A model generated the notes under the pieces. That model was given only the letters and a program-made list of their open reading frames with translations. It did no database searches and was not told the origin of the DNA. The position numbers and the translations under genes are program-made. A stretch of DNA of 64,000 nucleotides from NCBI GenBank assembly GCA_030390025.1, contig CM059429.1, forward strand, positions 137,702,001 to 137,766,000, in the 5' to 3' direction. Shown here piece after piece: positions 3,824 through 64,000 of the stretch (positions within the stretch are counted from its first letter, which is position 1; every line of letters begins with the position of its first letter). Origin of the DNA: Squalus acanthias. Lineage: Eukaryota.

Positions 3824-3881
3824 ATGGTTTCCTATGGCATCTGTTCACGATACAGCTTCTTTCTGTTGATAGCTGTCTCTG
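3824..3881 (+). CDS. Gene A (CD2/CD58-family Ig receptor) signal-peptide exon
   Basis: ATG at 3824 reads MVSYGICSRYSFFLLIAVS(G) and ends at a phase-1 donor G|GTAAG. Upstream context AAAATCAGTCAGGATG mirrors gene B AAAATCAGTCAAAATG. The 112-nt intron joins in frame to the IgV exon. Confidence 0.85.
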
Positions 3882-3993: not shown

Positions 3994-4311
3994 GACTGTT
4001 TCTTACAGAAAGTAGTGACGATGCAGAGAATGTTTACAGTGAACTTGGGAATTCAGTACTTTTACATGTTCGGGGTCAAAGCTCCAATACTTACCATGAA
4101 GTAAAGTGGTTTAAAGGAAACTCAACAGTTGCACGATACAGAAATAATTCGAAGATGTACGGTGAATTTATACGGAGAGTAGAAGTTTTTCCAAATGGCA
4201 CTCTGCGATTTAACATCACAACAATAGCCGATGAAGGAAAATACCATTTTGAAATGTATAACAAAGAGGGAAAACTTCGGTTTACTCGACATTTTAAATT
4301 GCATTTACTTG
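3994..4311 (+). CDS. Gene A IgV exon (cysteine-free CD2-type V domain)
   Basis: Acceptor tttgcag|, donor G|GTGAG, 318 nt open: LFLTESSDDAENVYSELGNSVLLHV...EVKWFKGNSTVARYR...VFPNGTLRFNITTIADEGKYHFEMYNKEGKLRFTRHFKLHLL. The C-strand W, FxNGTL, DxGxY and absence of the canonical disulfide are CD2/CD58/SLAM hallmarks. Confidence 0.93.
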
Positions 4312-5451
4312 GTGAGTTTATTTCTTTAAAACTTTCCCTAATTGAAACCAGCACAAATCTTCAAAACAACTCCACTGGGTAAAAGGATTGCTTATAAGTA
4401 CCTTCTGTTCTGTACAGTAATAGAGTGGTATCAAAAATGACTGGCTCATCATGTTTTTACAATTCAGTACTCCTGTGTTGGAGTAGGTATCATAAATTTA
4501 GGAAATGCCTCAAGAGTTGGAACCTAAATCAGGATATCTGGTTTTCCAATGGACCTGCACCTGGACCTCTGAGTATCTGGTAGGGTGCAGTTAATATTCA
4601 GCACTAATCCAGAATACTACTACTATGCTTGTCCTGCTACAGGTGGCCCTGCTACATCTGTCTGTAGCCACATTTGACATTGCAGTGGCTGACAGCACTT
4701 TCCTGCCCTCTGATATTAGATGTGCCAAGGTACATGCATCCATCGGTGCATACATGATTACTATTGGGACAGGAACATTATGGCATAAATGCACATGTTG
4801 GGCAGCTAAACCCTCAGAGACATAACATGCGAAGTATGGAGATAACCTTTTTTGCCATTTCTCCACACACTTTTCATGCACAATTTTGGTGCAACACACT
4901 AATATCAAGCATGTAACAGTTCAGAGTTGTCAAGAGCTCAGGTGGGTGCCCACAGGGCCACCTAGGTTGGAGATGTACACAAAGGTCTCAGAAGTAAATA
5001 GGCAACAATGTCACCGACCTATAAGACAAAGCTTGGAGGACTCGAGAGTAAGAAAAATCAATAGAAATATGTTAGTGTGATGGAAAAGCATGACAGAAAT
5101 AAAAGAACAGAACAAATTGTACGCAAAGTAAAAAAAAAATTAGTGTTTATCAAGGTGAGGGATAAAGTGTTGGGGACTCGAACTCTTCCCATTTTGGGCA
5201 CCCAGTATCAGCATCAAGCACCCCCAAGTCAATAATAGCACAACCAGATGCACGCTAAAGTTCCCTCTCCTGTTCCCCAAAAACATGCCTCAACCCCAAC
5301 CTTCAAAGAACACCTCCTACTGCACCAATGTGACAATTTTCCACTTTCCACACCAGCCATTCTCTGAGTGAGATTGCCAACTAGTGTTGAATTAGGGACA
5401 GTTTAAGACTGTAGACCTACAGAAACAATGTTGAAACTAGCCAGCTCATTT

Positions 5452-9082: not shown

Positions 9083-9346
9083 AGAAAGTCTCAACACCGG
9101 TAATGAACATTACTTGTGTCTCTGAGCAAGATGTGTTCTTGTCATGTGAGGTTCGTGGAACGACTCCAGTTACCTTTTACTTGAATGATCAACAACTGAC
9201 TGAGGACAATGCTGTGTTTTCATATGACGGTAGAAAAGCTGCACTGAAGAACTCTACCTCATTTTCTGGCAATGAAACGTTCTTCTGTAAAGTTGAAAAC
9301 AAAATCAGTAAAAGCCAGACTGCTCCAAGAGAACCCGCCTGTGCAG
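9083..9346 (+). CDS. Gene A IgC2 exon
   Basis: Acceptor ttctctttcag|, 264 nt: EKVSTPVMNITC..VFLSCEV...FFCKVENKISKS...PACA with the four-cysteine CD2-family C2 pattern. Ends at CAG|GCAAGT (GC donor), the position homologous to the GT donor in gene B. Confidence 0.9.
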
Positions 9347-13785: not shown

Positions 13786-13895
13786 GCTCAACTGAAGCTC
13801 ACCATTATGTCCAGGTTATCGTTATTGTGATGGGAGTGATTGCACTAATTATTATTGTGGGGCTGGTTTATTGCTTTTGTCAGAAAAATCATTAA
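13786..13895 (+). CDS. Gene A transmembrane exon, coding part (exon continues to donor at 13917)
   Basis: Acceptor cctcttttgatatag|. Reads GSTEAHHYVQVIVIVMGVIALIIIVGLVYCFCQKNH then TAA (13893-13895), followed by QQLQGKE and a phase-1 donor G|GTGAGT at 13917/13918. Spliced CDS 58+318+264+110 = 750 nt (249 aa). Confidence 0.85.
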
Positions 13896-14055
13896 CAACA
13901 ACTGCAAGGTAAAGAAGGTGAGTTTATAACCGAATTTTAAAACCAACCTGGGAATGGGTCATCTGCCTTTGAGGGGGGAAAGGGCAGAAAAAGAGTAAAA
14001 ATAAAATGAAAAATGGGACAAAATTAGAAATATCAGAACCCCATTATTGACCTCC

Positions 14056-21780: not shown

Positions 21781-22985
21781 GGGGAACCAGTGGACGTAGT
21801 GTATTTAGACTTCCAAAAGGCATTTGACAAGGTGCCACACAAAAGATTATTGCTTAAGGTAAAAAATCACGGGATTGGGGGTAATATTCTGGCATGGATA
21901 GAGGATTGGCTATCTAACAGAAAGCAAAGAGTTGGGATAAATGGTTCATTCTCAGACTGGCAATCAGTAACTAGTGGTGTTCCACAGGGGTCAGTGCTGG
22001 GTCCCCAACTCTTCACAATCTATATTAACGATTTGGAGGAAGGGACCAAGTGTAACATATCAAAATTTGCAGATGATACAAAGATGGGAGGGAAAGTAGT
22101 GAGTGAGGAGGACATAAAAAACCTGCAAGGGGACATAGACAGGCTAAGTAAGTGGGCAGAGATTTGGCAGATGGAATACAACACTGGAAAGTGTGAGGTG
22201 ATGCACTTTGGCAGGAAAAATCCTAGAGCAATTTATTATCTTAATGGCAAGAAACTGGAGAGTACTGAAGTGCAAAGGGATCTGGGGGTCCTGGTGCACG
22301 AAACTCAAAAGGTTAGTATGCAGGTGCAGCAAGTGATTAAGAAGGCAAATGGAATGTTGGCTTTCATTGCTAGGGGGATAGAATATAAAAATAGGGAGGT
22401 ATTGCTTCAGTTGTACAAGGTATTGGTGAGACCGCACCTGGAATACTGCATACAGTTTTGGTGTCCTTACTTAAGGAAAGACATCCTTGCTCTCGAGGCA
22501 GTGCAAAAAAGGTTCACTCGGTTAATCCCGGGGATGAGGGGGTGGTCATATGAGGAGAGGTTGGGTAGATTGGGACTCTACTCATTGGAGTTCAGAAGAA
22601 TGAGAGGCGATCTTATTGAAACATATAAGATTGTGAAGGGGTTGGATCGGGTGGATGCGGGGAGGATGTTCCCGATGACGGGTGAGACGAGAACTAGGGG
22701 ACATAGTCTTAGAATAAGGGGCTGCTCTTTCAAAACTGAGATGAGGAGGAACTACTTCACTCAGAGGGTGGTAGGTCCATGGAATATGCTGCCACAAAAA
22801 GCTGTAGAAGCTACAACATTAATTAAATTTAAAACAGAAATAGACAGTTTCCTAGAAGTAAAGGGCATTAAGGGTTACGGGGAGCGGGCAGGAATTTGGA
22901 CATGAGTCTAGGTTCGGATCGGTCATGGCCCTGTGGGTAGTGGAGCGGGCCCAGCGACTGTGTAGCCTGATTCTGCTCCTATTTC
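21781..22985 (+). mobile_element. Young 5'-truncated CR1 LINE with an uninterrupted 371-aa RT C-terminal frame
   Basis: ORF 21790-22905: [48 protein letters not shown]. Followed by a second CR1/SINE tail at ~23045-23143. Confidence 0.95.
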
Positions 22986-23354: not shown

Positions 23355-26300
23355 GTCCAACTGAAAGAAGAACTGCAAGAGATTTCAAGAAGACATAGAC
23401 AGATGACAGATGCAGAGAAGTGTGAGGTAATACATTACGAGAAGAAAAACTAGGAATGGGAGTACATACTCAATGGAAAGATTCTGAAGGCGATTTTGTG
23501 GCCCCAGCCTCATTTGAATTTGGCAGATGCGCTACAGACACCAAACACACGTCCTGATGCAGCTTGCCGCTCTTCGATCTCAGGAATGTTGGCCTGCTGG
23601 AAGGCCGGCAGAGGCCCGCAGGTAGGTGCTCGGAGTGGGGGCGGGGGGCGATACCAAGGTGGAGTAAGAACGGGTTCACAGTATTTTTTTGGAGCCAGGA
23701 GGAGCATTCCTGCTCCTTTCGGATCCACCAAAAAAATTTGAAAATATTTTCTGGTTGTTTCCTGATTGGAACACCAGTACACACGGGCAGAGGATTCGCG
23801 TCGCAAGCTCTGGCCATGTGTTCCTTAAAATTTCAATCAGGGTCCTAACTACATCATCAAAACTACAAAAAGATTTTACAATTATATTAGAAGAGAAAGG
23901 GTAGTCAAGGGCAATGTGGGCCCTTTAAAAACAGACGGGGGTAATATTGCAAATGAAAATAAGGAAATGGCAGAATTGTTGAATAATTATTTTGTGTCAG
24001 TCTTCACAGTACAGGAAGAGGATAATATACCTGACACTCCAGGGAAATTAATAATGAATCAAGGACTGGAACTCACTAAAGTTAATGTAAGCAAGAAAAC
24101 AGTATTGGAAAAAATAATGGTACTAAAGACTGACAAATCCCCAGGACCTGATGGTTTCCACCCCAGAGTTTTAAAGGAAGTAACCATTTAGGACTGAGAT
24201 GAGGAGAAATTTCTTCACTCAGAGGGTGGTGAATCTTTGGAATTCTCTACCCCAGAGCGCTGTGGAGGCTCAGTCGTTGAGTATATTCAAGACAGAGATC
24301 GATAGATTTTGGGATATTAAGGGAATCAAGGGATATGGGGATAGTGCAGGAAAGTGGAGTTGAGGTAGAAGATCAGCCATGATCTTATTGAATGGCAGAG
24401 CAGGCTCGAGGGGCCAAATGGCCTACTCCTGCTCCTATTTCTTATGTTCTTATGTGAGGAAATTGCAGATGCTTTAGCTATAATCTTCCAAAGCTCTCTC
24501 GATTCAGGAATTGTCCCTTTAGATTGGAAAATTGCAAATGTAACTCCATTATTTAAGAAAGGTGAGAGAGAGAGACACCAGGAAATTATAGACCTGTTAG
24601 TCGAAGCTGCTAGACCAGCACAGACTAGTTGGCTGAATGGTCTGTTTCTGTGTTGTATATTTTATGTAATTCTCTGTAACATCTGTTGTGGGGAAGTTAT
24701 TGGAATTTATATTTAAGGATAGAGTGACTGAGCATTTAGAGAAACTTGAGCTGATTAGAGAGAGCTAACATGGATTTGTAAAAGGTAGGTTATGTCTAAC
24801 GAACCTAATTGAATTTTTTGGGGAAGTAACTAAAGTGGTAGACAGGGGAATGTCTATGGATGTAGTTTATCTGGACTTCCAGAAGGCATTCGATAAGGTT
24901 CCACATAAGAGACTGTTAGCTAAAATTAAAACTCATGGAATTGAAGGCAAATTATTGACCTGGTTTGGAGATTGGTTAGGCAGTAGAAGACAGAGAGTAG
25001 GGATAATGGGTATATACTTGAATTGGAAGGAAGTGACTAGTGGTGACCCACAAGGATCTGTGCTGGGACTTCAACTATTCTTTATATTTATTCATGACTT
25101 AGATTACACAATAGAGAGCCATATATCCAAGTTTGCTGATAACACAATGATTGGTGGTATAGTAAGTAATGTAAATGGAAGGATAAAATTACAAAGAGAC
25201 ATTAATAGATTAAGTAAGTGGGCGAAACAGTGACAGATGGATTTCAATGGAGTTAAGTGTGAGGTCATCCATTTTGGACCAAAAAAGGGTATATCTGAGT
25301 ATTATTTAAATGGTGAAAGGCTAGGAACAGTGGAGGTCCAAATAGATTTAGGGGTCCGTGTAAAACGTAGCAGTCAGGAACAAAAATAATCAAAAAGGCT
25401 AATGGAATGTTAGCCTTTAGAACTAGTGGGCTAGGATATAAAGGGGAGGAAGTTTTACTACAGCCCTGGTTAGACCACATCTGGAGTACTGTGTACAGTT
25501 CTGGGCACCACATCTTAGAAAGGATATATTGGCCTTTGTAAGGGGGTCACGGTACTGGTGCGAGGTGAGGCCTTCGTTGCCTATACTATTGCTTGCTCTG
25601 GTCTCCGGCCAGACTTTTGCAATAAGCACCTGTGAGTGGTTCGACCCACTCACCCTTACGGTTCTGACACCTGGACTTAGATGCAAGGAGCAGTAATGCA
25701 GAGAAAACTCAAATAGACTCGGTTGAATAGCACGAAATGAATATCTTTATTGCATGGCGTCTAAAATCATGAAATACATGTCATAGGCGCAGATCAAAGA
25801 GAGTACAAGTATACACACGTTCATAAAACTTGGTCTATGGAAATGGGGAACACACGTCACATCGTAAAAAGGGGAACACATTATACATTAACCTTAGAAA
25901 AACCACCCTCCCTCGATATACCTAAACTACGTCTGGATTTGTAGGATCGGAAAACATGCTCACCACTCGGCTTACTTCGGAAATTTAAAGTGGGGCACTC
26001 AGCTCGTTTCGCTGCAGCGCCTGACTGTCACGTGGTTGTGAGGGTTTCTGCACCCCACTTGTTTACTCTCGCTGCCGCGAAAGGCAAGCCAGACTCCCTG
26101 ATGTCATGAAGTAATCGATGGATTCAAAGAAAACGGTACATGTAGTAGTCGGTAGAATTCAAAGATGAGTTCTGTCGTTATATCTTCGGGCGCGGTCGGG
26201 GTTTACTGACTGTGGCGGCACGTGGAATTTCTTCTCGTTTTTCTTCTCGTCTTTCTTCTCGTCACTCGGGCCTCCGGGTCCGGACACCGTTTACCGACAC

Positions 26301-41286: not shown

Positions 41287-41347
41287 ATGCTTTGTCAACA
41301 AAAATGTTTATCACAGTTCAACATAATTTTGCTGCTAGCAACATCAG
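41287..41347 (+). CDS. Gene B (CD2-like) signal-peptide exon
   Basis: ATG at 41287 reads MLCQQKCLSQFNIILLLATS(G) and ends at a phase-1 donor CAG|GTAAGG. Upstream context matches gene A. Confidence 0.85.
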
Positions 41348-42648: not shown

Positions 42649-42966
42649 GACTGTTTCTTACAGAAAGTGTTGACGATGCAAAACCTGTTTACGGTGAACT
42701 TGGGAAGTCAGTTTTTTTAGATGTTCGCGATTCAATCTCCAATATTGACAATGACGTTATATGGTTCAAGGGACAAGCAAGAGTTGCACGGTACAAAGAA
42801 ATTTCTAAGTTCTATGGTGATTATGACCAGAGAGTACAGATTTTTCCAAATGGCACTCTGAAATTTTACATCGGAGAAAGAGCTGATGAAGGAGAATACC
42901 GTATTGAAATATATAACAAAAAGGGAAAACATCTATTTACTCAAAAAGTTAATTTGCTTTTACTTG
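42649..42966 (+). CDS. Gene B IgV exon (cysteine-free CD2-type V domain); missed by the ORF track
   Basis: Acceptor atccacag|, donor G|GTGAG, 318 nt open: LFLTESVDDAKPVYGELGKSVFLDV...DVIWFKGQARVARYK...IFPNGTLKFYIGERADEGEYRIEIYNKKGKHLFTQKVNLLLL. Colinear with the gene A V exon. Confidence 0.93.
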
Positions 42967-43399
42967 GTGAGTTTCTTTCTTTTAAACTTTTTTGTATTAG
43001 TATCTGGCCCAAAGCTTCATGACAAATTCACTGGGTAATGGTAGGGGACTACAAATCCTTTGGAGTAAAGGATTTTTTTCCAGGTAGTTAGAGTATTGTA
43101 AAGTTGGGGAATAACTCTCCGAGTCAGGATTAGCCAGGTATTCTAGAAGCTTCAACTCCTTCTGAATCCTGGAGCACCACCTGTAACATCAGCCTGTCAA
43201 CATGCATTTGCACACAGAGTGCATGTTGTTAGCATCATGCATTGTGTGAATAGCTCCATGCACATGCATGCTGGTGCAGATTTGGTGCTGCAAGACTTGT
43301 AGGAAGGAAGAGAGCAGGATAATCGCATTGACAACATCTGAATCACATCAGTGGGGTTGCTGATTAGCCTGAAAATAAGTATAACACTGTCACTATAAT

Positions 43400-43630
43400 A
43401 CTGATGCTTGTTTGGTACTGGTACAGCTCTAGTATTTATTTGGCATGATAACAGTTTGATGCTGCTCTGGTGTAAGCATTTAATGTTGGTACTGCTCTGG
43501 TAAAGGTCTGGAATCGGCACTGGTACAGATATAGGTCTGGTACTGATATCACTCTTGTATTGGTGCTAGACTGGTATTGTTACTGTTCTGGTACAGATCT
43601 GATATTGGCCTGGTACTGGTACATACAGTC
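43400..43630. repeat. Degenerate minisatellite (TGGTACTG/CTGGTACAG-rich)
   Basis: Repeated TCTGGTAC(T/A)G words in gene B intron 2. Confidence 0.55.
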
Positions 43631-45974
43631 CCTCTGGAATACTAGACTTGCACTCATATGTTTTTGTTATATTGGATGGTGATGCCCAGAAGTTGGAGCA
43701 TTCTGGTTCTGTGTTACAAGCAAAATATATATTTTGAACCACTTAAACTGCATTCTGGTAATCTTAAAAAAAGTGTCTATGCATGAGTTGCACCCACAAT
43801 ACAATGCAGAACGTTGTACTGTTGATCGTGTCATTACGCAGCAAATTATAAAACATTGAATCCTAAACCAACAAACTTTACCAGGTCTCAAGGCAAACTA
43901 GAACCAAAATTTAAGGAACACTTGTTTCCTTTGAATGGGTTTACACCAAATTGCAAGCAGTTCAGAGTAGTTACTATACACCAGGAGCCAAATTCAAATC
44001 TGCTTTGTCCCATAATGCACAATATAACTGCAGTATCAGATCTTACACCAGTACCAGTCTAGAACTCATACTAATCTCTTGTTGGTTTTAATCTACAAGG
44101 TAATCCATTCTACATTATGTTAGCCGAATATCTCAGTGGTTCTTTACAGGAATATTTTTAGGGAATTCGACCAAACCATGTCTTTCAGTTCATTGTATGG
44201 TTGAACAGTACAGTTTTTAAGTCATTGAAAAATGTTAAATTCTGATTTCTTTATACTGTCTCAATAAACTATACCTTCCCAGTTAGCCTAGATATAACAG
44301 TAATGAAAATAGATGTAAAACCCCTCAGAAATTTAAGGTGAATATTATCTTTTCTACATTGGTAACATTTCCAGGACGGTCAATAGGATTTATAGTTTGG
44401 CTCTTATTATTTTTATTCTAATTTATTTTTACGCCACTGGATTTTGTTCGGAAATATTTTTACACAGACAACATCCCCACACACTGTGCGCCGGTGCCAG
44501 CTTCTTCTTAGTCAGATAATGGCATTTAATTTCACTGTGCAAGTCTGTCAGTCAAGATGTATGAAACAAATATGACAGAAATTTTCCAAGACCTCTGTCA
44601 CCAGTGGGGACTTGTAGGCTGCAGGTGGTTTATCAGAAAATCACAGGTGCTCTGCCGACACTTTCTGTACATTGATTTCAAATGCACACAGTGAACTCCA
44701 GCGCTAGTACAACGAATGCTGGAAATGCAAAATAAAAACAGAAAATGCTAGAATTGCACAGCCTGTGACTCAAAGTCTGAAAGAAAAGGATTATTGTCTC
44801 ATGTTCTAATGAAGGGTTATACCTGAAACAAAACCCTACCTTTCCCTTTTGTTGGATGTCAAATTGACCTACTTTGTATTTCCAATTTGTTCAGTATTTG
44901 CAAAGTCTAGAGCTGCAGTTTGTATACAACATGGCCTTTCAAATTTCCCCTGTATTAGCTTCATATGTTAACACATAAATCATAGGAAACTGCATGCTCA
45001 AACTCACAGTTGTCACGTAAAAATCTGCAATACTGATGGGAAGCAGTTGTTGAAGAATATAGCTGGATCAGAGAGTTCTGATCATGCTATTCCTTAGAAT
45101 CACAAAACTAAAGTAATTAATCATGAGAAACAGCAGAAGCATGAGAGTAAATTACTTCCTTAAGCTCACCTTCCATTACTCGCTTCTGTATGTAATATAT
45201 ACTGTAATATAGGGTAAGGTTTAGCTTATTTCTAGTTTTCCTATTATTATATGAATTGATCACTGAACACTGGTTAGTTTGCTTAGCTGGTCCATATTGA
45301 AAACATTGTTTCCATGAGGTTAAGAGGTGCCATAATTCACTTGTTCTTATAAATTTTACATATTGACTTAATAGATTATTGATGGTGGAGTTGTAACATT
45401 AGCGATTTTGTCACTAAGACCAATTAAAGTATACAAATCCTTTAAGTTCACTTACAGCTGTAACGTGGGCTTTGCTTTAATTGTGGAGGTTTTCTGATGT
45501 CACTGAAATATCAAAACAGCTTCCTGTTACGAAGAACAATAAGTATAACCAAATTTATGTCCTGGAGGTGTATTGGTTTGTTACCAAATATTTTTTAATG
45601 AATTTTTATAGTAGATTTAGGCTATACAGTGTATAGCCTAAAAGCATATGCCTTTTAATTACACCACAAACTATAGATTTTCACCATGTCTTCAAACTAA
45701 CGGCAGATGTAATGGAGTTTTTATTTTAGTTGTAATTGGGTTAAATAAATGAAGGTTATTCTAAGAAATTTTAATTAGGATATAAGTAAATGAGGTTTAC
45801 TTATTACAATTAGCTTATACAGCTAAATGTGTCTAGTAGGGTTTATTGTGCATGTAATTATGGAAAGACTAAATCTTATGATAGTAAATATTAAGATTAA
45901 TTGCTGTGCAGTCTAACGCAACAACAAAATTATTATTCATCATTATTATCTACACAGACTTATCTATTTTTTTA

Positions 45975-46318
45975 TATATTAGTTCCTGGGATGTGGGCGT
46001 CATTGGCAAGGCCAGCATTTATTGCCCATTCCTAATTGCCCTTGAGAAGGTGGTGGTGAGCCGCCTTCTTGAACTGCTGCAGTCCGTGTGGTGAAGGTAC
46101 TCCCACAGTGCTGTTAGGTAGGGAGTTCCAGGATTTTGACCCAGCGACGATGAAGGAATGGAAATATATTTCCAAGTCAGGATGGTGTGTGACTTGGAGG
46201 GGAACTTGGAGGTGGTGGTGTTCCCATGCGTCTGCTGCCCTTGTCTTTCTAGGTGGTAGCGGTCGTGGATTTGGGAGGTGCTGCCGAAGAAGCCTTGGCA
46301 AGTTGCTGCATTGCATCT
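45975..46318 (-). mobile_element. LINE family B 3' fragment
   Basis: Near-identical to 5455-5800. Confidence 0.88.
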
Positions 46319-49300
46319 ATGAGACTATATTTAGAATTATATAGAAATTACAACATGGAAACATGCTGTTCAGCCCAACCAGTCCATATTGGTGTTAATT
46401 CTCCAAATGAGCAGTAGTCTTAATCCCAAGTTCCCACGCTATTCTCATATCCCTTCATCCCCTTTTCTTCATACCATCTATCTAACCTGTTCTTAAAAGA
46501 TAACATAGTCTCTGCTTCAATCACTAACTCTACAGCCTCACAACCTTCTACTTAAAACAAATTTCCTTTGATCTCCGACCTTTAATCTTATTTCCATGTC
46601 CCCCTCATTCTAGACATCTCAACTAACAATCTGGGTGATCAGCCATTGGTAGATTTATTCACCATGTATTTCATGGCACAGGCACAATGGGCTGAATGGC
46701 CTCCTACTGTGCTGTACCATTCTATCTCTGTACTTCCATTTTGAACTCCTCAAAGCTGCTGAAGCTGAGACACAATGAAGCTCAGACATTCTGTCCACAT
46801 CCTGAACAATATGCAGTTTTTGTGAAACGAAGTATTGGGCAAGGAGCTGAATGCAACACTAAATAAGCCCTTCAACCATGGTGGAAAAAATGGAATGAAC
46901 ACATTGACCCTGCAGTAACCTTGAAGGTTAGCAGCATCAATGTTGTTACAATGGGCCATAAGTTGCTGTAGGAGTGAATCTAACAACATTTGCCATTAGT
47001 TAAACTTGCCTTTGCCCGTTTAATCTCAACGATATTTTGCATGCAATTTGCTGAAAGTGCAAGCTGATAACGGCGCAGCGAGGGAAACTGAGAATCTGGG
47101 ACCTGAAACAGGGCAAGCAACTGTGTATTTCCTTAACCAATCAGATTGAAGGATTGTGAAATTAACAGTGCAAGGACTCAGAAGGAAGTGTAAATTAGAA
47201 TGGGTGAATTCAATGTCAAATCAGGTGCAGAAAAAGAAATAAAGAGAGGGAAAGAAAGATTGGATTAAGAGAGAGAGAATAAAGAGACAGAAAGGAAAAG
47301 TAAAAAAAAAATTTAATTTCACATTTTTAAAGTATCCAACAACAATTAAAACCTGAAGGAATGTAGTAGATAATTTTCAGTGCCAGAAAGGTTCATTGGC
47401 AATAATTAATAATTAGCACTTCGTTAAAAGAATCTCTGACAGCTCATCCAGGCTCAATTAAATATGTGTGAATCTTAAATGGCTCCAAAACAGACTACTT
47501 GCGTCACTTCAGACCAGCTCTAACTTTCTGTGGTGACTTTAGTTTGTATCTACCGCACGAGTACAGCAACTTCACATCATTCAATGCATTTCAATGGTGA
47601 GCCAGACAGCGAGATGCTGTTTTCACTAAGCCAACGGCGGAGCGGCGCATCGCGGATAGCAACTTCTGGATTTCCGCGTTTAACCGCGCATCTGCCCCTC
47701 CGCCTGAAATCGCTGTAGCATTTGCGCGCAAATAACGGCGAGCGCCGTTAGCCTAACCCTTATTTTGACAGCAGATTATTGCTTTCACTGGTGTGCCAGA
47801 GACCACGTAGGCTATAGTTGGGCCCGCAGTTAAAATGGCAGTGTTGTGTCCCGATGATGCTATCGGGACAGGACACTGCCATTTAAATTAGGCCCCCGTT
47901 CCTGAATTCAGGTAAGTAAGAATGGTGAGGGGCAGGAACGTGTCGGGATTGTGGCGCAAACCTCCATTGCTATCTTAACCGCGCCTGCGCTGTTCCTGCC
48001 CAGTGAGGGGTTACAATCGACCCTGTGGCTTCTTTTCCTGCCGAAAATTACTTTTAGAGATGTGCATACATGCATGCTGACATCTTCGGTGTTGAAAATG
48101 GTGGGAAATTTCCTCCATTTTTTCCTCAATATTCAAAAATGTCAATAAGTCATATCAGAAAAGTTATTCATAAGTTCTGGATATTTGCAACGCCACAAAC
48201 AATCTTTATTGATAAATCCTAACGTACTACTCAATGAGTACTTTTCAAATTTTATGATAAAATAGTGATTAAGAGCCTAAAATTCCTGGGGTTGGGAAGG
48301 GTGGAAAGGGAATCATTTACAACATTGTTTGAAACGGAGGCCAGAAAGGAAATTTGGGTGATTGAGAGTTTAGTGGGAATGGTGTTGAGGGAATAGGAGG
48401 TGCGGGACGGGGTGAGTCTTCTGTCTGCCCCCCATATCTGAGATAGTTACCGGGCTAACCTAGGAAGTCGTCCCATTACTAAAATTCACATAGCTTGTTC
48501 TTCGACCCTTCCTGGGCCTCAGGGTTCCCCTGACAGAGCAGCTGTACGCAGGATTTTCCCTCAGGAGATTAAATGAATGGAGTAGAGTTCCTGATAGAAT
48601 AGATTGTGCATGGTCTTTAGAAGGAATGGGTTTTATGAGCTCAATGGCCTTTTCTTGTTGCAGGCTTTCTTAAACTATTACATTTATCTGTAAATTTCTA
48701 AAGAACATTTGAATTCATCATATTCTTGGAATAAACTGAACATCAGTCTGTTTTAGTTTCAATATTAGTACACACATGATACTATTTAAAAGCATGTATT
48801 ATTAAGTAAAAATTGTAGAAAAAGCACAATGTACATTTCTCAATTTACATCATGACTATTTTGGGTAGAGCCTGGCCCCACATTGTCTGTCACTATAAAA
48901 TTCAATGGTATCTTTTGTCAAAGCAGACCAGCTGTTAAGCTTTGGAGCATTTGAAATCAGCCAATGAACAGTTTTCTAAAACCCCTGCAAAAACGAACAA
49001 AATTACAAACCAATTTTGAGATGATTTTTTACATTTAAGATTAAAAAGGGTCAATTGTGAAAAACCTAACCTTTGAATTCAATAGGGTAGATTTTCTAAG
49101 ACCTCTCTGTCAGTGAGCCTGCAATTTTCTATCCATTGAAAAACATTTGCTGAGCAAATGGGAAGGTTACATTTCCTGAACGCTGACTGTGTTCTTTAAC
49201 ATATAGGGGGCAATTTTCATCTCACTATCATTCCAATTTGGGCTTCAGCAGGACGATAAGATGCCCAGAAAACCGTTGTAAATCAGTTCGGCTGGATATC

Positions 49301-49424
49301 CTTTGTTAAGACCCTGCTTGTGATCCGGGTCGGGCCTGGTGCGGGTGTCTGAAGCTCTCGCCCAAAGAAGGCGGGAGCTCCATTAGTGTATGTAAAAGGG
49401 GAAGGGTGCGCCGCCAAATTTGGG

Positions 49425-52400
49425 GTAACACCTGAGGCCACTATGCACCTGTGCTAGACCCTTGGATCAACCGCTGCTGGTTCATGGTCAACTCTGCACT
49501 CACTCTCAGCCCTTTGATTCCAACCTCCAGCAGTGCGCCCACTGATATTCTACCCCTCAAATAGCTCCTGGATCCACACCCTCTCCACAACTGTCTCCAA
49601 ACTTGGGCACTGGTTTGTGGCTGCCCCAAGCTGACTCCTTCCTGTCCTCTGTTTAGGACATGTTTCTTCCAACCTCTGCCATCCCTATTTAATCTGAAAT
49701 CTCTCTATATCCATTTGCTTGTGCATTTTAGCTGCCACTCCTGATCTGAGCCCATTACATCTTTCTCCTTTTTTTTCTCTTGGCCCCATCTCTCCTCTTC
49801 CTTTTAACGAGCCATGCTACCTTCCATTTCTCCCCTCTTGGGCAGTATTCCCCCCATCCCTAATCCAACCCTTCACTACTCTTCATCCTTCCAACTCTCT
49901 TACTGACGTCACAGGGTTGAATCCCTCTTGAATAAGTCCACGTATACCCTCTGTGCCTCTCTTGGCATTCTCGAAGGGCCCACTGAGGCACCTGCCGCTA
50001 CCTCCTTACAAGCACCCCAACTGCCCCATCCTCCTTTCTCACGGACACTCTGCCAATCTTCTTCCTGTCGAGCTCACCCCACATCACTGCCTTTTGGACT
50101 CTACCATAGGAACAGGAGTCGGCCATTCAGCCCCTCGAGCCTGTTCCACCATTCAATTAGATCATGGCTGATCCAAGGGTCCAGTGCAGGTGCTTAGTGG
50201 CCTCAGGTGTTAGCCGTAAAATAACAGAGCACCAGTGGATCAACTTAACTGCCCTTCTTCGCTTTTTCCTCCAGAATATCTAATCATGTGCAAACAAGGC
50301 CCTTGACATTCACGATGTTATTGTGGACAATTACATTTAATCCTGGCTTTCCAACCAAGATATCCTCCCTCTTTTTTCCCCATAGCCTCTGCACTTATGA
50401 ATCCTCATCCTTGGTCATTTCAATCTTCATCTCAGCTCCCCTTGCCCTCTCTCCTCTGAATGCACTGAGCTCCTGTCCTCCCTAAATCTCTCCATGTAAT
50501 AGCCATTACAGAGACATGGTTGCAAGGTGACCAAGGTTGAGAACTAAATATTGCAGGGTACTTGATGTTTCGAAAAGACAGGCAGTTGGAAAAGGAGGGG
50601 GGTTAGCTCTGATAATAAAGAATGACATAAGGACAGTAGTGAGAAAGGATCTTAGCTCGGAAGATCAGGAATTAGAATCAGTATTGCTTACTGCAATTAT
50701 ATAGGGCCCTGGTGAAACCACACCTGGAGTATTGTGTACAGTTTTGGTCTCCTTACCTAAGGAAGGATATACTTGCCATCGAGGGAGTTCAATGAAGGTT
50801 CACCAGACTGATTCCTGGGAAGGGGGTTTGTCCTATGAGGAGAGATTGAGTAGACTAGGCCTATATTCTCTGGAGTTTAGAAGAATGAGAGGTGATCTCA
50901 TTGAAACATACAAAATTCTTACAGGGCTTGACAGGGGTAGATGCAGGGAGGATGTTTCCCCTGGCTGGGGAGTCTAGAACCAGGGATCACAGTCTCAGAA
51001 TAAGGGGTCGGCCATTTAGGACTGAGGTAAGGAGAAATGTCTTCACTCAGAGGGTGATGAATCTTTAGAATTCTCTACCCCAGAGGGCTGTGGAAGCTCC
51101 GTCAATAGATTTTAACGAGCCATGCTACCTTCCATTTCTCCCCTCTTGGGCAGTATTCCCCCCATCCCTAATCCAACCCTTCACTACTCTTCATCCTTCC
51201 AACTCTCTTACTGACGTAATACTGCCCAAGAGGGGAGAAATGGAAGGTAGCATGGCTCGTTAAAATCTATTTTGGATATTAAGGGAATTAAGGGATATGG
51301 GGATAGTGCAGGAAAGTGGAGTTGAGGTCGAAGATCAGCCATGATCTTATTGAATGGCGGAGCAGGCTCGAGGGGCCAAATGGCCGACTCCTGCTCCTAA
51401 TTCTTATGTTCTTCTGTAAACTGGTTGATCCATATTAACGGCCACCTCCTCGACTTTGCTATCTCTAGTGGCCGCTCTACTCCCTTGGTCTCGATCACAG
51501 ACAAGGCCATCCTTGATCACTTCTTTGTTTCCCCCATTACCCAAATTCCCCTATCCCTTTCAACCCCACTTCTATTTGCATCCATCGCTGGAAAATCTCT
51601 CCCCAAATCACTTACAACTGCACTCTGAAACTCCCAACTGCTTATACTTTGGCCCTTGATTTGCAACGATACTTCTGTAGCTGTCAATCTGATCAACCAA
51701 TCCCTGACCTCCACTTTTGATGCCCTTATCCCCAGCAAAGCCTTTACTCTCTCTCATTGTGGTCATTCCACCCCGGCCTAGACCTGAACCCTAGCCTTTC
51801 CCTAGTTTCAATCCAATCACCCCTTATACCATCCCCAAGATTATCTTGTCCATGAGACCCACCTCCTGCTCCCTTGGCCCCATTCCCATTAAACTGCAGA
51901 CCACCCAACTTCCTCTCTGGCCCCTATGTTAGTTGACATTGTAAATGGTTTCTATCCTCTCCTTGTACTGTCCCCTCCCTTTGAAACCACCATCATCACC
52001 CCGTTTGTCAAAAAACCTACCTTGATCTTTCTGTTTTTGCAAACTACCACCCCATCTCCAACCTTCCTTTCCTCTCACAAGTCCTTGAGCATGTTGTCAC
52101 CTCCCAAATCTGTGCCCATCTTTCCCACAATTCCATATTTCAATCTCTCCAATCAGGTTTCTGACACTGCCACAGCACCAAAACAGGCCTAACTAGTTAT
52201 AAATGACTTATTCTGTGACTGTGACCATGGTGCATTATTCCTCTTCATCGTCCTCAACCTCTCTGCAGCCTTTGAAATGATCGACCACACCATTCTCCTC
52301 CAATGCCTCTCCTCCACTGTCCAGCTCAGTGTGGCTGTCCTTGGTTGGTTCCAATTATAGTCCGAGCATTTCCAGCAATAGCTCTTTTCCCGCCCTGCAC

Positions 52401-53390
52401 CACGACCTCCGGAGTCCCCCAAGGATTTTATTCTTGGCTCCCTCATTTACACGATGCTGCTTGGCTACATTGTCTGCAGACATGGAGTCAGGCTCCATAT
52501 TTATGCTGATGACACCTAGTTGTTCCTCTCCGCACCATCTCTCTCTATCCTTTTTTTGTCTCTGTGCTGTCAGACTGTTTGTCTGACAACCAATCTTGAA
52601 TGAGCTGCAATGTCCCCTAGTTAAACAATTGGAAGACTGAAGCCATCATCCTCAACCCCTGTCACAAATCCTGTACCTTTGCCATCGATTCCATCCCCAT
52701 TCATCATCTCAGGCTGAACCAGACTGTTTGCAATGTTGGCATCTTATCACACCACAAGCTAAGCTTCTGACCACATATCCTCTTTGTCACAAAGAGCACT
52801 TCCTTCCACCTCCAGAGCACTGCTGACCTCCACCCTTACATCAATCTATTTGCTGCTGAAACTCTCATCCATGACTTTGTCACCTCGATGTTTCCAATGC
52901 TCTACTAACCTGTCTCCCGTCCTCCACTCTCGGTAACCATCAGCTCATCCAAAACAGTGCTGCCCATATCCTATCCCAGACCCCTGTACTTGCTGTCCTA
53001 CATTGGTCCCTCGTTACCCAATGCCTGCATTTTAAAATTCTCATCCTCATGTTTAAATCCCTTTATGGCCTTGCCTCTCCCTATTTACATAACCTACTGC
53101 AGCCCTCCAACACCCCCCCCCCACCCCCGAGTTCCCAGTTCCTCTGAATCTGGCCTATTATGCAATCCCCCCCCCACCCTATTCACCCCACATTGATGGT
53201 CATGCCTTTAGTTGCCTGTCTAACCCCCTCAGCCTCTCTACCTCCCTTTCCTCCTTTAAGACTCTCCTTAAAACTCACCTCTTTGACCAAACTTTTGGTC
53301 ACCCTCCTAATATCTGCTCCTTTGGCTTCTCATCCATTTATTTCTGATTATGCCTCAGTAAAGCTGCTATGTAAATGAAACTTATTGCTG
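49425..53390 (+). mobile_element. Rearranged L2 LINE with nested CR1 pieces (50104-50172 minus, ~50505-51413 plus)
   Basis: L2 motifs (HINGHLLDFAIS, ILDHF, SGVPQG, YADDT) colinear from ~50270 to 53390. The CR1 segment has RRMRGDLIETYK and the CR1 tail. Confidence 0.75.
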
Positions 53391-53546
53391 CTGTTTATTT
53401 CCAGAATATTTACAGAAGATAAAACAGAGATAAGGTTAACACCATTTATGATCGTTCAAAGCACTTGCTACTGTCAACACATTTTCCTTTATTATTCTCC
53501 TCCATATGGAAAACAGCCAGTCCTGGATAGCCAGGATACATACCGT

Positions 53547-54060
53547 ACACTCTCCATAAACTTGAGCTCATCCAAAACTCTGCTCCCGTATCCTAACTCG
53601 CACCAAGTCCCGTTCACCCATCACCCCTACGCTTGCTGACATACATTGGCTCCTAGTCTGACAGCATCTCGATTTTAAAATTCTCATCCTTGTTTTCAAA
53701 TCCCTCCATGTCCTCGCCCCTCCGTAACCTCCTCCAGCCCCCAACCCTCCGAGATCTCTGCGCTCCTCCAATTCTGGCCTCTTGCACATCCCCGATTTTA
53801 ATCGCTCCACCATTGGTGGCTGTGCCTTCAGCTGCCTGGACCCTAAGCTCTGGAATTCCCTCCCTAAAACTCTCCACCTCTCTCTCCTCCTTTAAGATGC
53901 CCCTTAAAACCTACCTCTTTGATCAAGCTTTTAGTCACCTGTCCTAATATCTCCTTTTGTGGCTTGGTGTCAAATGTTGTTTGATAATACTCCTGTGAAG
54001 CACCTTGGAATGTTTTACTATGTTAAAGGTGCTATATAAATACAAGTTGTTGTTGTTCTT
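53547..54060 (+). mobile_element. L2 LINE 3' fragment ending ~45 bp before the gene B C2 exon
   Basis: Matches 14230-14760 and has a (GTT)n tail. Other L2 3' pieces lie at 56550-56775 (minus), 57300-57930 (plus) and 6700-6860 (minus). Confidence 0.9.
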
Positions 54061-54105
54061 GTTGTAGATTACTTGTTTAATATGTAAAATTTCTTTTTCT
54101 TTCAG

Positions 54106-54348
54106 TGAAAGTCTCAAAGCCAGTCTTGGAAAGTAGATGTAACTCTCAAAAAGTCAACATAACCTGTAAGGTGGAGAATGGAACAGAAGTCACCCTGAAA
54201 TTACTTGGTGACTCACTGAATGAATCAGTCAAAGGCCGATATTTAAACAAGGCATATTCCTTCACAAAGACCAGAGTTAAGAAGTATAAATGTAGTGCTA
54301 GCAACCACATTAGTGAAAGCGAGACTTCAAGTGAGGTTAACTGTGCAG
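54106..54348 (+). CDS. Gene B IgC2 exon
   Basis: Acceptor ttctttttctttcag|, donor CAG|GTAAAT, 243 nt: VKVSKPVLESRCNSQKVNITCKVENGTEV...KYKCSASNHISESETSSEVNCA. Strongly resembles CD2 domain 2 (VSKP..C...LTCEVxNGT...FKCTAxNxVS...VSC). Confidence 0.93.
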
Positions 54349-55883
54349 GTAAATGCAGATTGATATTTTATAGTGACAGCAAGTTTGTTCTTATATTGTC
54401 TTTGTGATTATTGTCTGATAATGGAAAATTGAAAGAACTGACTTCTATGCATTAAACTTCACTTGATTATTACAGAAGTGAGCTAATCTGGAATGGTTCC
54501 TTATCAGTAAATCCAGATTAAATTGATTTCATAATCTTCCAAATAAGTAACTCCAGACTGAATTGGAAATACATCCCAATGAGTAACTCCAGATTGAGTT
54601 GATCTGAAATTTATCTTATTAAATCTAGATTAAATTGATCTGAAAGTCCTGATCAATTATTTCGGGGTAGATTTTCAATTTACTGCCCCGGTGTAAAATT
54701 GACGTTGATGATCGGCCGCTCGGTATAGGATCCGCCTAACTTCTGTTTCCATTGATTTAATTGGAAATGGAAATCGAGCAGTTTCCATCATGGGTGGCCG
54801 GTTTTCAGCCTGAAAATCAATCAAAATTCCATTTCAAATCCCTGGTCAAATAACCTGTTGTCAATAAAGAAATACAGTTCACAATTCTCACATTGGGGTT
54901 TGGATCGAATTAATTAGTAAGTGTCCTTTGCAGCTTTCAATCTACATTGGTTTGATATCAAAATTCATATAGAATTTTGACTTTGTAAATTGTTTTTTTG
55001 CTTTCCCAGCCTGTTTCTCCTTAGTTTATCTTACACCATTCACCGTACCTTCCTGATGGAGAGGGCAGGGCCCTTTCCTGTGGTGAACGATGGGCATACT
55101 ATCATCACTCACCGGGGTTGATTTTGACTTTGGCCGTTCCAGCGGCAAAGAATCTGCTGTGATTTTTGTGCCCCGGGCCTCATTTGAATTTGGCAGGCGA
55201 GCTGCAGATGCCAAACATGCGTCTTGATGCAGCTCGCCGCTCTCCCACCTCAGGAATGTCGGCTTGCTAACGATGCCGGCAGAGTAAGTGCGCGGAGTGG
55301 GGTGGGGCACGATACCATGGCGGGGCGAGGACAGGCCTGCAGTATTTTTGTGGAGCCAGGAGGAGAACTCCTGCTTCTTCCAGTGGAGCATTCACATCAC
55401 AAGCTCTGGGCACGTGCCCCTTAAAATTGTAATAAGGTTCCGAACAACATCATTAGGACCCTGATTTGCATAGGAAAGAGGCCTACCGCTTGTTTCAGGC
55501 AGGCGCTTCAGCTGCCCAGCAGTAGGCCTTGGTGAAAGTTGCATCGGGCTGCTCGTTGGGGGTTAACAGGACAGTACAGCTACCGACCCCAGTTTTAGGC
55601 CCTTACTACTCTGTTAACACTGATTGTCCCAAGTAAAAATGGGAACCATTGGTACTGTACGTTAGAAGAAGAACAAGCCATTTCATACATTTTTAATGTT
55701 GATTATAACACAGTGAATAATTCCTATATTAACAATATATTGTCTAAATGAAAACATTCATTACAATTTCACATCTTAATCTTATTGCAATTCTGATATT
55801 TCTGTCCTGGGATACTTATTGTTAAATTTGCACTGTGTGGCTTTGCGGGCATTATTCATATTTTCATTCTTTTATTTTTACAG

Positions 55884-56018
55884 ATGATAAATCTCTATTC
55901 GTTCGTTATAGTAACATTATGATAATAGCAGGAGCAGTGGCGCTGGTAATCATCTTATCAATCCCAGTGATTTATTGCATTCGAAGACGCACTCATCGGC
56001 AAATGCAGAGGGAAGATG
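55884..56018 (+). CDS. Gene B transmembrane exon
   Basis: Acceptor ttttatttttacag|, donor G|GTAAGT, 135 nt: DDKSLFVRYSNIMIIAGAVALVIILSIPVIYCIRRRTHRQMQRED. Uncharged TM with a basic stop-transfer segment, open to the donor, so at least one more cytoplasmic exon must follow. Confidence 0.92.
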
Positions 56019-60996: not shown

Positions 60997-62700
60997 ACAG
61001 AAAATGCTGGAAATACTCAGCAGCTCAGGCAGCATCTGTGGAGAGAGAAACAGAATTAACGTTTCAGGTCGATGACCCTTCGTCAGAACTGGAAAAAGTT
61101 ATAATGTAAGAGGTTTTAAACAAGTACAGAGGTAGGGAAAGGTGGGAGGGGAGGAAAGAACAAAAGGGAAGGTCCGTGATAGGGTGGAAGGCAGGAGAGA
61201 TTAAAAGACAAAGGGGATGATGGAGCAAGGTGGAAGGAGATGGTAATGGGACAAGTAAAGAAACAAAAAGATGGGTCTAGAGAGGTGAAAGTGGCAATAT
61301 CAGAATCATCAGCAACAGCTGCCATCTGAAAAAATGTGGGCAGAGGTTATGATCTGTAATTGTTGAACTCAATGTTGAGTCCGGAAGGCTGTAAAGTGTC
61401 TAATAGAAAGATGAGATGCTATTCCTCGAGCTTACGTTGAGCTTCGTTGGAACAATGTAGGAGGTCAAGGACTGAGAGGTCAGAGTGGGAGTGGAACAGA
61501 GAATTATAGTGACAGGCGACTGGAAGCTCGGGTCACACTTGAAGGGAGGTATTCCAGAAAGTGGTTGCCCAATCTGCATTTGGTCTCCCCAATGTAGAGG
61601 AGACGGCATCGTGAGCACCGAATACACTATACTAAATTGAAAGAAGTACAAGTAAATCACTGTTTCACCTGGAAGGAGTGTTTGGGGCCCTGGATGGTGG
61701 GAAGGGAGGAGGTAAAAGGGCAGGTGATGCACATCCTGCACTTGCACAGGAAGGTGCCATGGGAAGGGGAGGGGGTGTCGGGGGTGATAGAGGAGTGGAC
61801 CAGGGTGTCGCGGAGGGAACGGTCCCTTCGGAATGCTGAAAGGGGAGGGGTAGATGTGTTTGGTGGTGGGATCACGCTGGAGGTGCGGGAAATGGCGGAG
61901 GATGATCCGTTGACTGTGAAGGCTGCTGGGGTGGAAGGTGAGGACAAGGGGAACCCTATCATGGTTCTGGGAGGGAGGGAAAGGGGTGAGAGCAGAGGTG
62001 CAGGAAATGGAACGGACACGGTTGAGGGACTGTCAATTATGGTGGAGGGGAATCCTCGGTTGAGGAAAAGGAAAACCTGTCGTAAGCACTGGTATGGAAG
62101 TTGGCATCGTCGGAACCGATACAATAGAGACGGAGAAACTATGAAAATGGAATAGAGTCCTTACAGGGAGTGGGGTGGGAGGAAGTGTAGTCAAGGTAGC
62201 TGTGATAGTCAGTGGGTTTATAGTGGATATTGGTCGATAGCCTATCCCCAGAGATGGAGACAGAGAAGTCAAGGAAGGGAAGGGAAGAGTCGGTGATGGA
62301 CCATGTGAAGGTAGGGAAGGGTAGAAATTGGAAGCAAAGCTGATGAAATTTTCCAGTTCGGGGCGAGAGCAGGAAACGGCACCAATACAGTCATCAATGT
62401 ACCCTAAAAAGAGGTGAGGGAGGGGGCCTGAGTAGGACTGGAACAAAGAATGTTCCACATATCCCACAAAATGGCAGGCATAGCTAGGACCCATATGGTT
62501 TCCCATAGCAATACCTTTTATTTGGAGGAAGTGCGTGGAGTCAAAGGAGAAGTTGTTCAATGTGAGAACAAGTTCAGCCAGGTGGAGGAGGGTGGTGATG
62601 GATGGGGACTGGTTGGGCCTCCATTCAAGGTAGAAGCAGAGGGCTCTCAGGCCGTCCTGGTGGGGGATGGAGGTGTAGTGGGATTGGATGTCCATGGTGA
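60997..62700 (-). mobile_element. Penelope-like retroelement (RT + GIY-YIG endonuclease + 3' terminal repeat), degenerate
   Basis: TMDIQSHYTSIPH, NNFSFDSTHFLQIKGIAMG..MGPSYAC, YIDD, PLSAFRRDRSLRDTLV, Cys-rich linker CKCRMCITC, and a decayed GIY-YIG region near 61560-61640. Confidence 0.92.
61054..61090 (-). ncRNA. Minimal type I hammerhead ribozyme motif in the Penelope 3' end
   Basis: Minus strand reads AGTT-CTGACGA-AGGGTC atc GACCT-GAA-ACGT-T-AATT: intact cores, helix II, palindromic ACGT helix III, NUH = GUU, helix I AGTT/AATT (AACT in sister copies at 18215 and 19351). Confidence 0.72.
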
Positions 62701-63630: not shown

Positions 63631-64000
63631 TGTGATCGTGGTCTGCTGCGCCCGGCACAACATAGCGCAACTGCAATGATTAGTGGTGCATGAGGAGCAA
63701 GGCTCTGAGCACACAGCCTCTTCAGAGGAAGAGGAGGAGGAGGAGGAGGAACCTGCGGTCCATATCCCACCAGCACCCGAGCACATTGCTGCCCGGGAGG
63801 CCAGGGATGGCCTCATCATGGCCAGATTTACTTAACTTCAGGCATTACACACATATGGCTGCCATATCCTATGCCAGGCTCCCAACAGCCCACAGCAACA
63901 CCATAAAGCATCCCTACAATGACCAGGCCATTCCTTTCACACTGACCACCACTGCTGGAGGTAACGTTATGTTTCACCATTCACTCCAACTCACTAAGCC

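What the first reader, a model, noticed from the sequence alone, without database searches (positions are those of the whole stretch)
42649..42966. Excess of amino-acid replacements over silent changes between the two V domains
Seen (manual codon comparison of 3994-4311 vs 42649-42966): 45 codons change amino acid, many by multi-base or charge-altering substitutions (TYHEVK/IDNDVI, NST/QAR, RNN/KEI, TTI/GER, LR/HL, RHFK/QKVN). Only 9 of the ~60 conserved-residue codons carry a silent change. Many replacements fall in the predicted B-C loop and the C, C', F and G strands that form the CD2 adhesion face. Inference: dN/dS near or above 1, i.e. diversifying selection on the binding surface.
Basis: partly seen in the sequence, partly recalled or inferred. 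Interest (0 to 1): 0.7.

Follow-up and report, generated by a model that had tools for sequence, protein, structure and literature searches.

The report
Shark CD2 twin with copied domain
The two look-alike domains belong to a shark's T-cell adhesion gene CD2 and a neighbouring short-tailed copy whose binding domain was likely overwritten by gene conversion long ago; they differ as fast at protein-changing as at silent sites, but the changes are not concentrated on the predicted binding face, and both are predicted to bind the same nearby CD58-like partner.

Summary
The counts are exact: 45 replaced, 60 conserved, 9 silent of 105 codons. dN/dS is 0.95-1.42 by five ML models, never significantly above 1. 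Replacements fall on surface residues generally (17 of 28 on the GFCC'C'' face, 21 of 37 elsewhere), and residues matching the CD2 hot spot (Y88, G92, K93, R/K49) are kept. So 'near 1' holds; 'diversifying selection on the binding surface' is not shown. About three quarters of the changes lie on the CD2 branch, where selection remains possible. What is really there: a shark locus with long-tailed CD2 (gene B) and a short-tailed CD2 paralogue (gene A), both present in sharks and rays. Their V exons are far more alike (dS 0.2-0.3) than their C2 exons (dS 0.8-1.25; p 0.0002). V identity exceeds C2 identity in 60 of 60 cross-gene pairs but in 6 of 60 orthologue pairs. The V exon was therefore likely homogenised by gene conversion near the shark-ray split. 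A third gene 60 kb upstream looks like CD58/CD48, and a model docks A on it as in human CD2-CD58 (0.75, controls 0.00). A is likely a non-signalling competitor or adhesion-only CD2.

The parts
3824..3881 (+). Gene A (short-tailed CD2 paralogue): signal-peptide exon, coding part
   Evidence: tblastn of P0001 residues 1-22; GT donor follows
3994..4311 (+). Gene A V-set exon (no cysteines; 4 N-glycan sequons, N42 and N50 at the rim of the binding face)
4312..4382 (+). Intron start that still aligns with gene B (46 of 62 bases beyond the donor); likely end of the conversion tract
9083..9346 (+). Gene A C2-set exon (4 cysteines), GC-type donor
13786..13917 (+). Gene A transmembrane exon; stop codon 13893-13895 after a 6-residue tail, upstream of a donor homologous to that of gene B; no charged residue in the membrane segment
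41287..41347 (+). Gene B (CD2) signal-peptide exon, coding part
   Evidence: spliced to the V exon in 4 of 4 runs laid
42649..42966 (+). Gene B (CD2) V-set exon: the finding
42967..43038 (+). Intron start homologous to 4312-4382
54106..54348 (+). Gene B C2-set exon (4 cysteines)
55884..56018 (+). Gene B transmembrane exon, open into the tail exon, which lies 9.3 kb beyond the window (L005 about 1321-1800; proline-rich, ends GPVPLPPK)

Best explanation
The two exons are the V domains of shark CD2 (gene B, long proline-rich tail, spliced in RNA-like contigs) and of a tandem short-tailed paralogue (gene A); the V exon was likely homogenised between the two genes by gene conversion near the shark-ray split and has since changed at surface residues about as fast as at silent sites, and both proteins are predicted to bind a neighbouring CD58/CD48-like protein (gene C), so A likely works as a non-signalling, adhesion-only or competing CD2. 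Shown: gene structures, counts, distances, kept hot-spot residues, splicing of B. Inferred: conversion (about 0.8) and its date; binding of A to C (about 0.7, model only); binding of B to C (by homology, not modelled); the competitor or adhesion role of A (about 0.55). Most of the change happened on the CD2 branch; whether it was driven by positive selection is open.
For: Silent distance V 0.20-0.30 vs C2 0.84-1.25; LRT of equal silent rate p 0.0002, and 0.0017 without the indel-rich middle of C2; silent changes in conserved codons 9 of 59 (V) vs 24 of 46 (signal, C2, TM), p 0.0001. V identity above C2 identity in 2 of 45 A-A, 4 of 15 B-B, 60 of 60 A-B pairs. C2 tree splits A from B (support 100, internal branch 1.1-1.8; 168 of 168 quartets); V tree does not (quartets 50 by gene, 86 by taxon, 17 crossed, 57 tied of 210). 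Both genes occur in sharks and rays. Locus: calsequestrin, Vangl, a P-type ATPase, gene C, A, B, an IGSF3-like exon in that order, like the human CD58-IGSF3-CD2 region (PMC8707797, PMC5990624, passages). Gene C: best solved relative CD48, E 3e-6; by eye against the CD58 chain printed it keeps E25, K29, K34, E37, E39, F46. A and B carry R47 and R/K49, Y88, G92, K93, the CD2-side residues. Model of A-V with C-V: ipSAE 0.75, best of 3 controls 0.00; runs agree in 93% of contacts, partner pLDDT 83; mark reached by 39 of 65 solved eukaryote pairs without a like complex and 2 of 126 unrelated pairs; C K35 touches A Y88/G92/K93 and C F48 touches A G92, as CD58 K34-CD2 Y86 and CD58 F46-CD2 G90 do (PMC4095001, passages).
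Against: The V tree does not reject separate A and B clades (p-AU 0.29-0.38), so conversion rests on distances, not topology. Intron or UTR flanks of other exons also still align (TM 5' 31 of 37, signal 5' 65 of 89, C2 3' 84 of 124 with gaps), so the duplication may be less old than C2 dS suggests, and C2, TM and signal alignments are gappy. Same-lineage A/B pairs are no more alike than cross-lineage pairs (S. torazame 47% vs 39-51%): no recent conversion. DNA was available for one species only. The human CD2-CD58 complex is solved, so the model may pass from memory and cannot tell which family member binds. A has a glycan sequon at N42 inside the modelled interface. Expression and cell type of A and C in this species are untested.
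Confidence: 0.55

Rival explanations
1. Positive (likely pathogen-driven) selection on the CD2 ectodomain of this lineage, spread over the whole surface rather than the ligand hot spot. Compatible with the conversion history; it replaces 'near-neutral surface drift' as the cause of the 45 changes.
For: Whole-domain omega about 1 although 32 buried or structural codons run at about 0.5; 33 vs 11 replacements on B, 27 vs 10 when only B orthologues judge; branch omega 1.1-2.25; 8 of 9 listed variants in B among 4 runs are replacements, 3 of 4 in V, 3 of 3 in C2, 2 of 2 in TM; bovine CD2 shows the same pattern outside the CD58-binding region (PMC2576349, passages).
Against: No test reaches significance under all models; polarity was assigned after the fact from proteins and silent changes were split equally by assumption; 8 of 9 is compatible with neutrality (p 0.28) and three more TM differences were not listed.
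Confidence: 0.45
2. One reading: diversifying selection aimed at the GFCC'C'' adhesion face, giving the two domains different ligands.
For: 17 of 29 vs 28 of 76 before removing buried residues (p 0.04); A orthologues more variable on the face (p 0.03); charge and sequon changes at 37, 42, 44, 50, 94.
Against: No enrichment among exposed residues in 5 of 5 face definitions (p 0.19-0.82); face omega lower than other surface; Y55, Y88, G92, K93, R47 identical in A and B.
Confidence: 0.15
3. No conversion: a duplication shortly before the shark-ray split, followed by a burst of change in C2, signal and TM exons of gene A.
For: A stem of 0.9 in the C2 tree with tetrapod outgroups, chimaera CD2 outside A+B (support 82, unresolved by AU tests); flanks of other exons still align.
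Against: Silent sites of those exons are three to four times more diverged too; V is the faster domain among orthologues; a burst in signal peptide and membrane segment is hard to explain by selection.
Confidence: 0.2
4. Gene A is the shark CD58, the counter-receptor of gene B.
For: Short tail and tandem position on the ATPase side of CD2; CD58 has a 12-residue tail (PMC8218816, passages).
Against: A has T44, R47, R49 where CD58 has K34, E37, E39; the 13 interface positions are net +3 in A and +2 in B; a better CD58/CD48 candidate, gene C, lies between the ATPase and A.
Confidence: 0.12

Closest known systems
CD2 (human, rat; PDB 1HNF, 1HNG, 1QA9 chain A)
   Same: V domain without disulfide, C2 domain with four cysteines, membrane segment; gene B has a proline-rich tail; Y86, G90, K91, R48 equivalents kept; top hits by sequence (E 1e-34) and fold (TM 0.78-0.80); same gene neighbourhood.
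   Different: Two tandem CD2-type genes; gene A stops six residues after the membrane; the tail of B has a repeat of QRGERA-like units and no PPPPGHR motif.
CD58 / CD48
   Same: Gene C (outside the window): V + C2 + TM + short tail, K34/E37/E39/F46 equivalents, beside the P-type ATPase. Gene A shares only the short tail.
   Different: Gene C has Cys at the C-strand Trp position and Gln at E78; CD48 scores above CD58, so CD58 vs CD48 is not settled. Gene A lacks the acidic face.
Paired or decoy receptors kept alike by gene conversion (CEACAM1/CEACAM3 and Xenopus ceacam pairs, PMC5112662 abstract; Siglec-11/16, PMC5701461 search listing; escape from conversion in CEACAM32, PMC7042247 abstract)
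   Same: Ligand-binding exon more alike than the rest of the genes; different tails; fast change among orthologues.
   Different: The conversion here is ancient, not ongoing; A has no ITAM, ITIM or charged membrane residue, so the pair is signalling vs silent, not activating vs inhibitory.
Positive selection on mammalian CD2 (bovine, omega 3.86; PMC2576349, passages)
   Same: High replacement rate in the ectodomain, not centred on the ligand site.
   Different: There shown by formal tests; here not significant with two sequences.

Membership tests
CD2 family (A and B) | N-terminal V-set domain without disulfide | tested here: met
   Pfam V-set (34.8 bits for A, over cut-off; 24 for B, just under 26); no Cys; fold matches CD2 (model of A only)
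CD2 family (A and B) | C2 domain with four cysteines, then a membrane segment | tested here: met
CD2 proper (gene B) | Long proline-rich tail with SH3-type PxxP motifs | tested here: met
   Tail exon in L005 with PHPRPQPR and GPVPLPP; feature as in PMC7295915 (passages); the assembly has a frameshift in the tail repeat
CD2 proper (gene A) | Long proline-rich tail | tested here: not met
   Stop at 13893-13895; A orthologues end within about 30 residues of the membrane
CD2 proper | Locus near ATP1A1 and IGSF3 | tested here: met
   the names ATP1A1 and IGSF3 rest on a weak Pfam hit and on motifs that I recall
CD2 proper | Expression on T and NK cells | not tested
   B is spliced in 4 of 4 runs laid, tissue unknown
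CD2 proper | Binds CD58 or CD48 | tested here: inconclusive
   Model supports A with C (0.75 vs 0.00), may be from memory of 1QA9; B with C not modelled
CD58 (gene A) | K34, E37, E39 acidic C' strand face | tested here: not met
   T44, R47, R49 in A
CD58 or CD48 (gene C) | K34, E37, E39, F46; V + C2 + short anchor; beside ATP1A1 | tested here: inconclusive
   Residues kept by eye; TM exon candidate; best solved relative is CD48, CD58 at E 0.16; no tree
Diversifying selection on a binding face | omega significantly above 1 | tested here: not met
   branch estimate inconclusive
Diversifying selection on a binding face | Replacements enriched on the face over other surface | tested here: not met
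   exposure classes assigned by hand from the CD2 alignment and predicted strands
Paired receptors | Ligand-binding exon homogenised between paralogues | tested here: met
   By distances; topology tests inconclusive
Paired receptors | Opposing signalling motifs or charged membrane residue | tested here: not met
   A has neither

The most novel reading that the evidence does not exclude
Sharks and rays have kept, since before their split, a three-gene CD2 system: signalling CD2, a silent CD2 twin that was given a copy of CD2's binding exon and competes for the same CD58-like ligand or for pathogen proteins aimed at CD2, and the ligand itself next door; CD2 then raced away from its twin under positive selection while both kept the ligand hot spot.
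Probability: 0.3. Interest if true: 0.6.

Novelty: new variant of a known kind. Interest (0 to 1): 0.36.

Why it matters
The literal finding (many replacements, few silent changes in an immune receptor's V domain) is common and not significant here. The larger reading would place the CD2-CD58 pair, with its hot-spot residues, in cartilaginous fish and add a conserved tail-less CD2 that mammals lack, shaped by exon-wide gene conversion. It gives three named genes for a direct binding test of T-cell adhesion in the oldest lineage with T cells. It also warns that pairwise dN/dS between these paralogues mixes exons of different age. Eight searches on CD2/CD58 in sharks, gene conversion, selection and synteny listed no paper on this locus; the library lacks most subscription journals, and databases already name both genes 'CD2-like'.

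Tried and rejected
One search's two GY estimates of exactly 1.00 were optimiser artefacts; redone (1.06 and 0.95). NG86 at kappa 3-4 gave borderline significance but ML kappa is 1.5-1.6. One search's AU rejection of B plus chimaera CD2 (p 0.0001) is driven by the second chimaera V domain and is not used. AU tests with tetrapod outgroups did not date the duplication (p 0.18-0.49; left out: lungfish, second chimaera protein, both S. torazame rows, Leucoraja, Stegostoma). My first reading, A = CD58, was dropped after gene C was found. No remnant of B's tail exon was found behind gene A. Intron flanks as a neutral clock did not separate V from other exons. Expression and variation of gene A in this species remain open; a 943-base Logan contig encoding a whole A-type protein, clustered with the little skate protein, suggests a spliced transcript there. 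No DNA of other species was available, so M7/M8, MEME and branch-site tests were not run. B with C, A with B and homodimers were not modelled. Papers PMC48034 and PMC3862340 (CD2 family in cyprinids) were not seen; part of the 13-residue interface list is recalled. No supplements were opened. Earlier findings: none.

Full report
Observation. The two stretches are intact V-set exons, 3994-4311 and 42649-42966. Of 105 codons, 45 are replaced and 60 conserved, 9 of these with a silent change; with pathway counting there are 13.5 silent and 56.5 replacement differences. Two of the 45 are not fixed: codon 85 reads as in gene A in 4 of 4 runs laid and codon 35 in 2 of 4.

Is dN/dS above 1? NG86 gives 1.29 (95% 0.72-2.55), or 1.54 at kappa 2. 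ML codon models give 1.42, 1.06, 0.95, 1.27 and 1.33; none differs from 1 (p 0.30-0.88). M2a does not beat M1a (p 0.64, 0.35). C2 is also high, 0.58-0.71. So the domain is far from ordinary purifying selection, but two sequences cannot show positive selection.

Is the change on the binding face? I mapped positions to human and rat CD2 and to the predicted strands (pLDDT 88) and classed buried and exposed residues by hand; part of the interface list is recalled. Buried or structural: 6 of 32 replaced; exposed: 38 of 65 (p 0.0002). Face against all the rest: 17 of 29 vs 28 of 76 (p 0.04), but against other exposed residues 17 of 28 vs 21 of 37 (p 0.47), and none of 5 definitions is enriched. Face omega is 0.68-1.25, other surface 1.17-2.02. 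R47, Y55, Y88, G92 and K93 are identical and 49 is R or K; these match CD2 Q46, F54, Y86, G90, K91, R48, among them the hot spot Y86 (PMC8218816, PMC4095001, passages).

The change is lopsided. At 33 of the 45 sites the A residue is the commoner one among 15 other shark and ray V domains, at 11 the B residue, 1 tie (p 0.001); with only the 6 B orthologues as judges, 27 vs 10 with 8 ties. If silent changes are split equally, omega on the CD2 branch is 1.1-2.25, p 0.006-0.49 over 8 settings. Of 9 variants listed in gene B among 4 runs, 8 are replacements, in V, C2 and TM alike; that fits omega near 1 (p 0.28), and 3 more TM differences were not listed. Selection on the CD2 ectodomain stays a live possibility, as reported for cattle (PMC2576349, passages).

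What the genes are. Relatives are all from sharks and rays, named CD2-like; the closest, from Heptranchias, is 73% (V) and 85% (C2) identical to gene A. Gene A: signal 3824-3881, V, C2 9083-9346, TM 13786-13917 with a stop six residues after the membrane. Gene B: signal 41287-41347, V, C2 54106-54348, TM 55884-56018 and a proline-rich tail exon 9.3 kb beyond the window. The signal-V joint appears in 4 of 4 runs laid, and one 935-base contig carries V, C2 and TM in a row. Sequence and fold searches rank CD2 first. Calsequestrin, Vangl and a P-type ATPase lie upstream and an IGSF3-like exon downstream (paralogue names recalled), like the human CD58-IGSF3-CD2 region (PMC8707797, PMC5990624, passages). 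A and B types both exist in sharks and in rays, so the duplication predates their split; its age relative to chimaeras is unresolved.

The real anomaly: the V exons are too alike. Nucleotide identity is 78% in V, against 51% in C2, 56% in the signal exon and 46% in TM. dS is 0.20-0.30 vs 0.84-1.25 (LRT p 0.0002, 0.0017 for the gap-free core). Silent changes in conserved codons: 9 of 59 vs 24 of 46 (p 0.0001). V is the faster domain among orthologues (identity above C2 in 2 of 45 A-A and 4 of 15 B-B pairs), yet the slower one between paralogues in 60 of 60 pairs (pairs are not independent). The C2 tree separates A from B with support 100 and a branch of 1.1-1.8; the V tree is a star in which A and B mix, and quartets favour taxon over gene 86 to 50 of 210. 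The simplest cause is gene conversion of the V exon and about 70 bases of intron, last active near the shark-ray split. Limits: separate A and B clades are not rejected for V (p-AU 0.29-0.38); same-lineage pairs are not closer than others; flanks of other exons still align; only one species gave DNA.

The ligand. A third family gene, C, lies 60 kb upstream on the minus strand. Its best solved relative is CD48 (E 3e-6), CD58 is weaker (E 0.16). Laid by eye against the CD58 chain printed, it keeps E25, K29, K34, E37, E39 and F46, has Cys for W28 and Gln for E78. Gene A has T, R, R at the K34, E37, E39 positions, so A is CD2-like, not CD58-like. A model of A-V with C-V scores 0.75 against 0.00 for the best of 3 controls (93% contact agreement, partner pLDDT 83; mark reached by 39 of 65 solved eukaryote pairs without a like complex, 2 of 126 unrelated pairs) and reproduces the K34-Y86 and F46-G90 contacts; 7 of its 14 A-side residues differ in B, against 38 of the other 91. 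The human complex is solved, so this shows likeness, not that this copy binds.

Mechanism. Gene B most likely acts as CD2: it binds C on an opposing cell and signals through PxxP motifs (PMC7295915, passages). Gene A would bind the same ligand with no signalling tail and no charged membrane residue, adding adhesion or competing with CD2. Conversion would have kept the two binding domains matched; since it stopped, both have kept the hot spot while the surrounding surface changed freely, mostly in CD2. Rivals are given with odds: selection on the whole CD2 surface (compatible), selection on the face, a late duplication with a burst elsewhere, and A as CD58.

Known and new. Conversion of ligand-binding exons between receptors with different tails is known for CEACAMs and Siglecs (PMC5112662 and PMC7042247 abstracts; PMC5701461 search listing). 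A conserved tail-less CD2 twin with a homogenised V exon, and a CD58-like gene in sharks, were not found in eight searches; PMC13262535 (passages) treats CD58 as mammalian, PMC5990624 (passages) finds it in zebrafish. Verdict: observation confirmed, interpretation partly supported, new variant of a known kind, interest 0.36.

Noticed in passing
L015:65-367 (-), L023:about 6970-7250 (-) and about 470 (-); G000:C5:137.632-137.642 Mb: Gene C: single-copy CD58/CD48-like gene about 60 kb upstream of the window, V, C2 and candidate TM exons intact.
   Followed up: partly
L005:1321-1800 (G000:C5:137775321 onward): CD2 tail exon has an AG-rich 18-base tandem repeat with a frameshift in this assembly; the end of the tail lies in another frame. 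Assembly slip or allele, not checked.
   Followed up: no
window 9347-9348: The C2 exon of gene A ends at a GC donor (GCAAGT) where gene B has GT.
   Followed up: no
window 13893-13917: Gene A tail differs among species by frame: the frame after the stop matches B's tail start, another frame reads NNNCKVKK like the longer cysteine-rich tails of ray and catshark A proteins.
   Followed up: partly
P0037 and P0115 (Callorhinchus milii): The chimaera has two V domains 64% identical that group together (100/99); the second has a tail with tyrosine motifs and an ICEEC stretch like ray A tails. Independent homogenisation or independent duplication.
   Followed up: partly
L003:1500-1785 (G000:C30:5947008): Another CD2/SLAM-type V exon, 31% identical to A, on a different contig.
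   Followed up: no
window 42649-56018: Run X6, labelled organism A, shares most gene B variants with X7, labelled organism B.
   Followed up: no
window 21781-22902, 24769-25230, 62036-62770, 62778-63812 and others: Many LINE reverse-transcriptase and LTR-retroelement fragments and interspersed repeats fill the introns and the gap between the genes; class names from recalled motifs.
   Followed up: no
L016:5902-6111 (-), L035:2255-2476 (-), L020:2280-2699 (+): Na/K-ATPase alpha-like exons about 190-205 kb upstream and an IGSF3/EWI-like exon about 90 kb downstream; the IGSF3-like gene lies beyond CD2, not between the CD58-like gene and CD2 as in human.
   Followed up: partly
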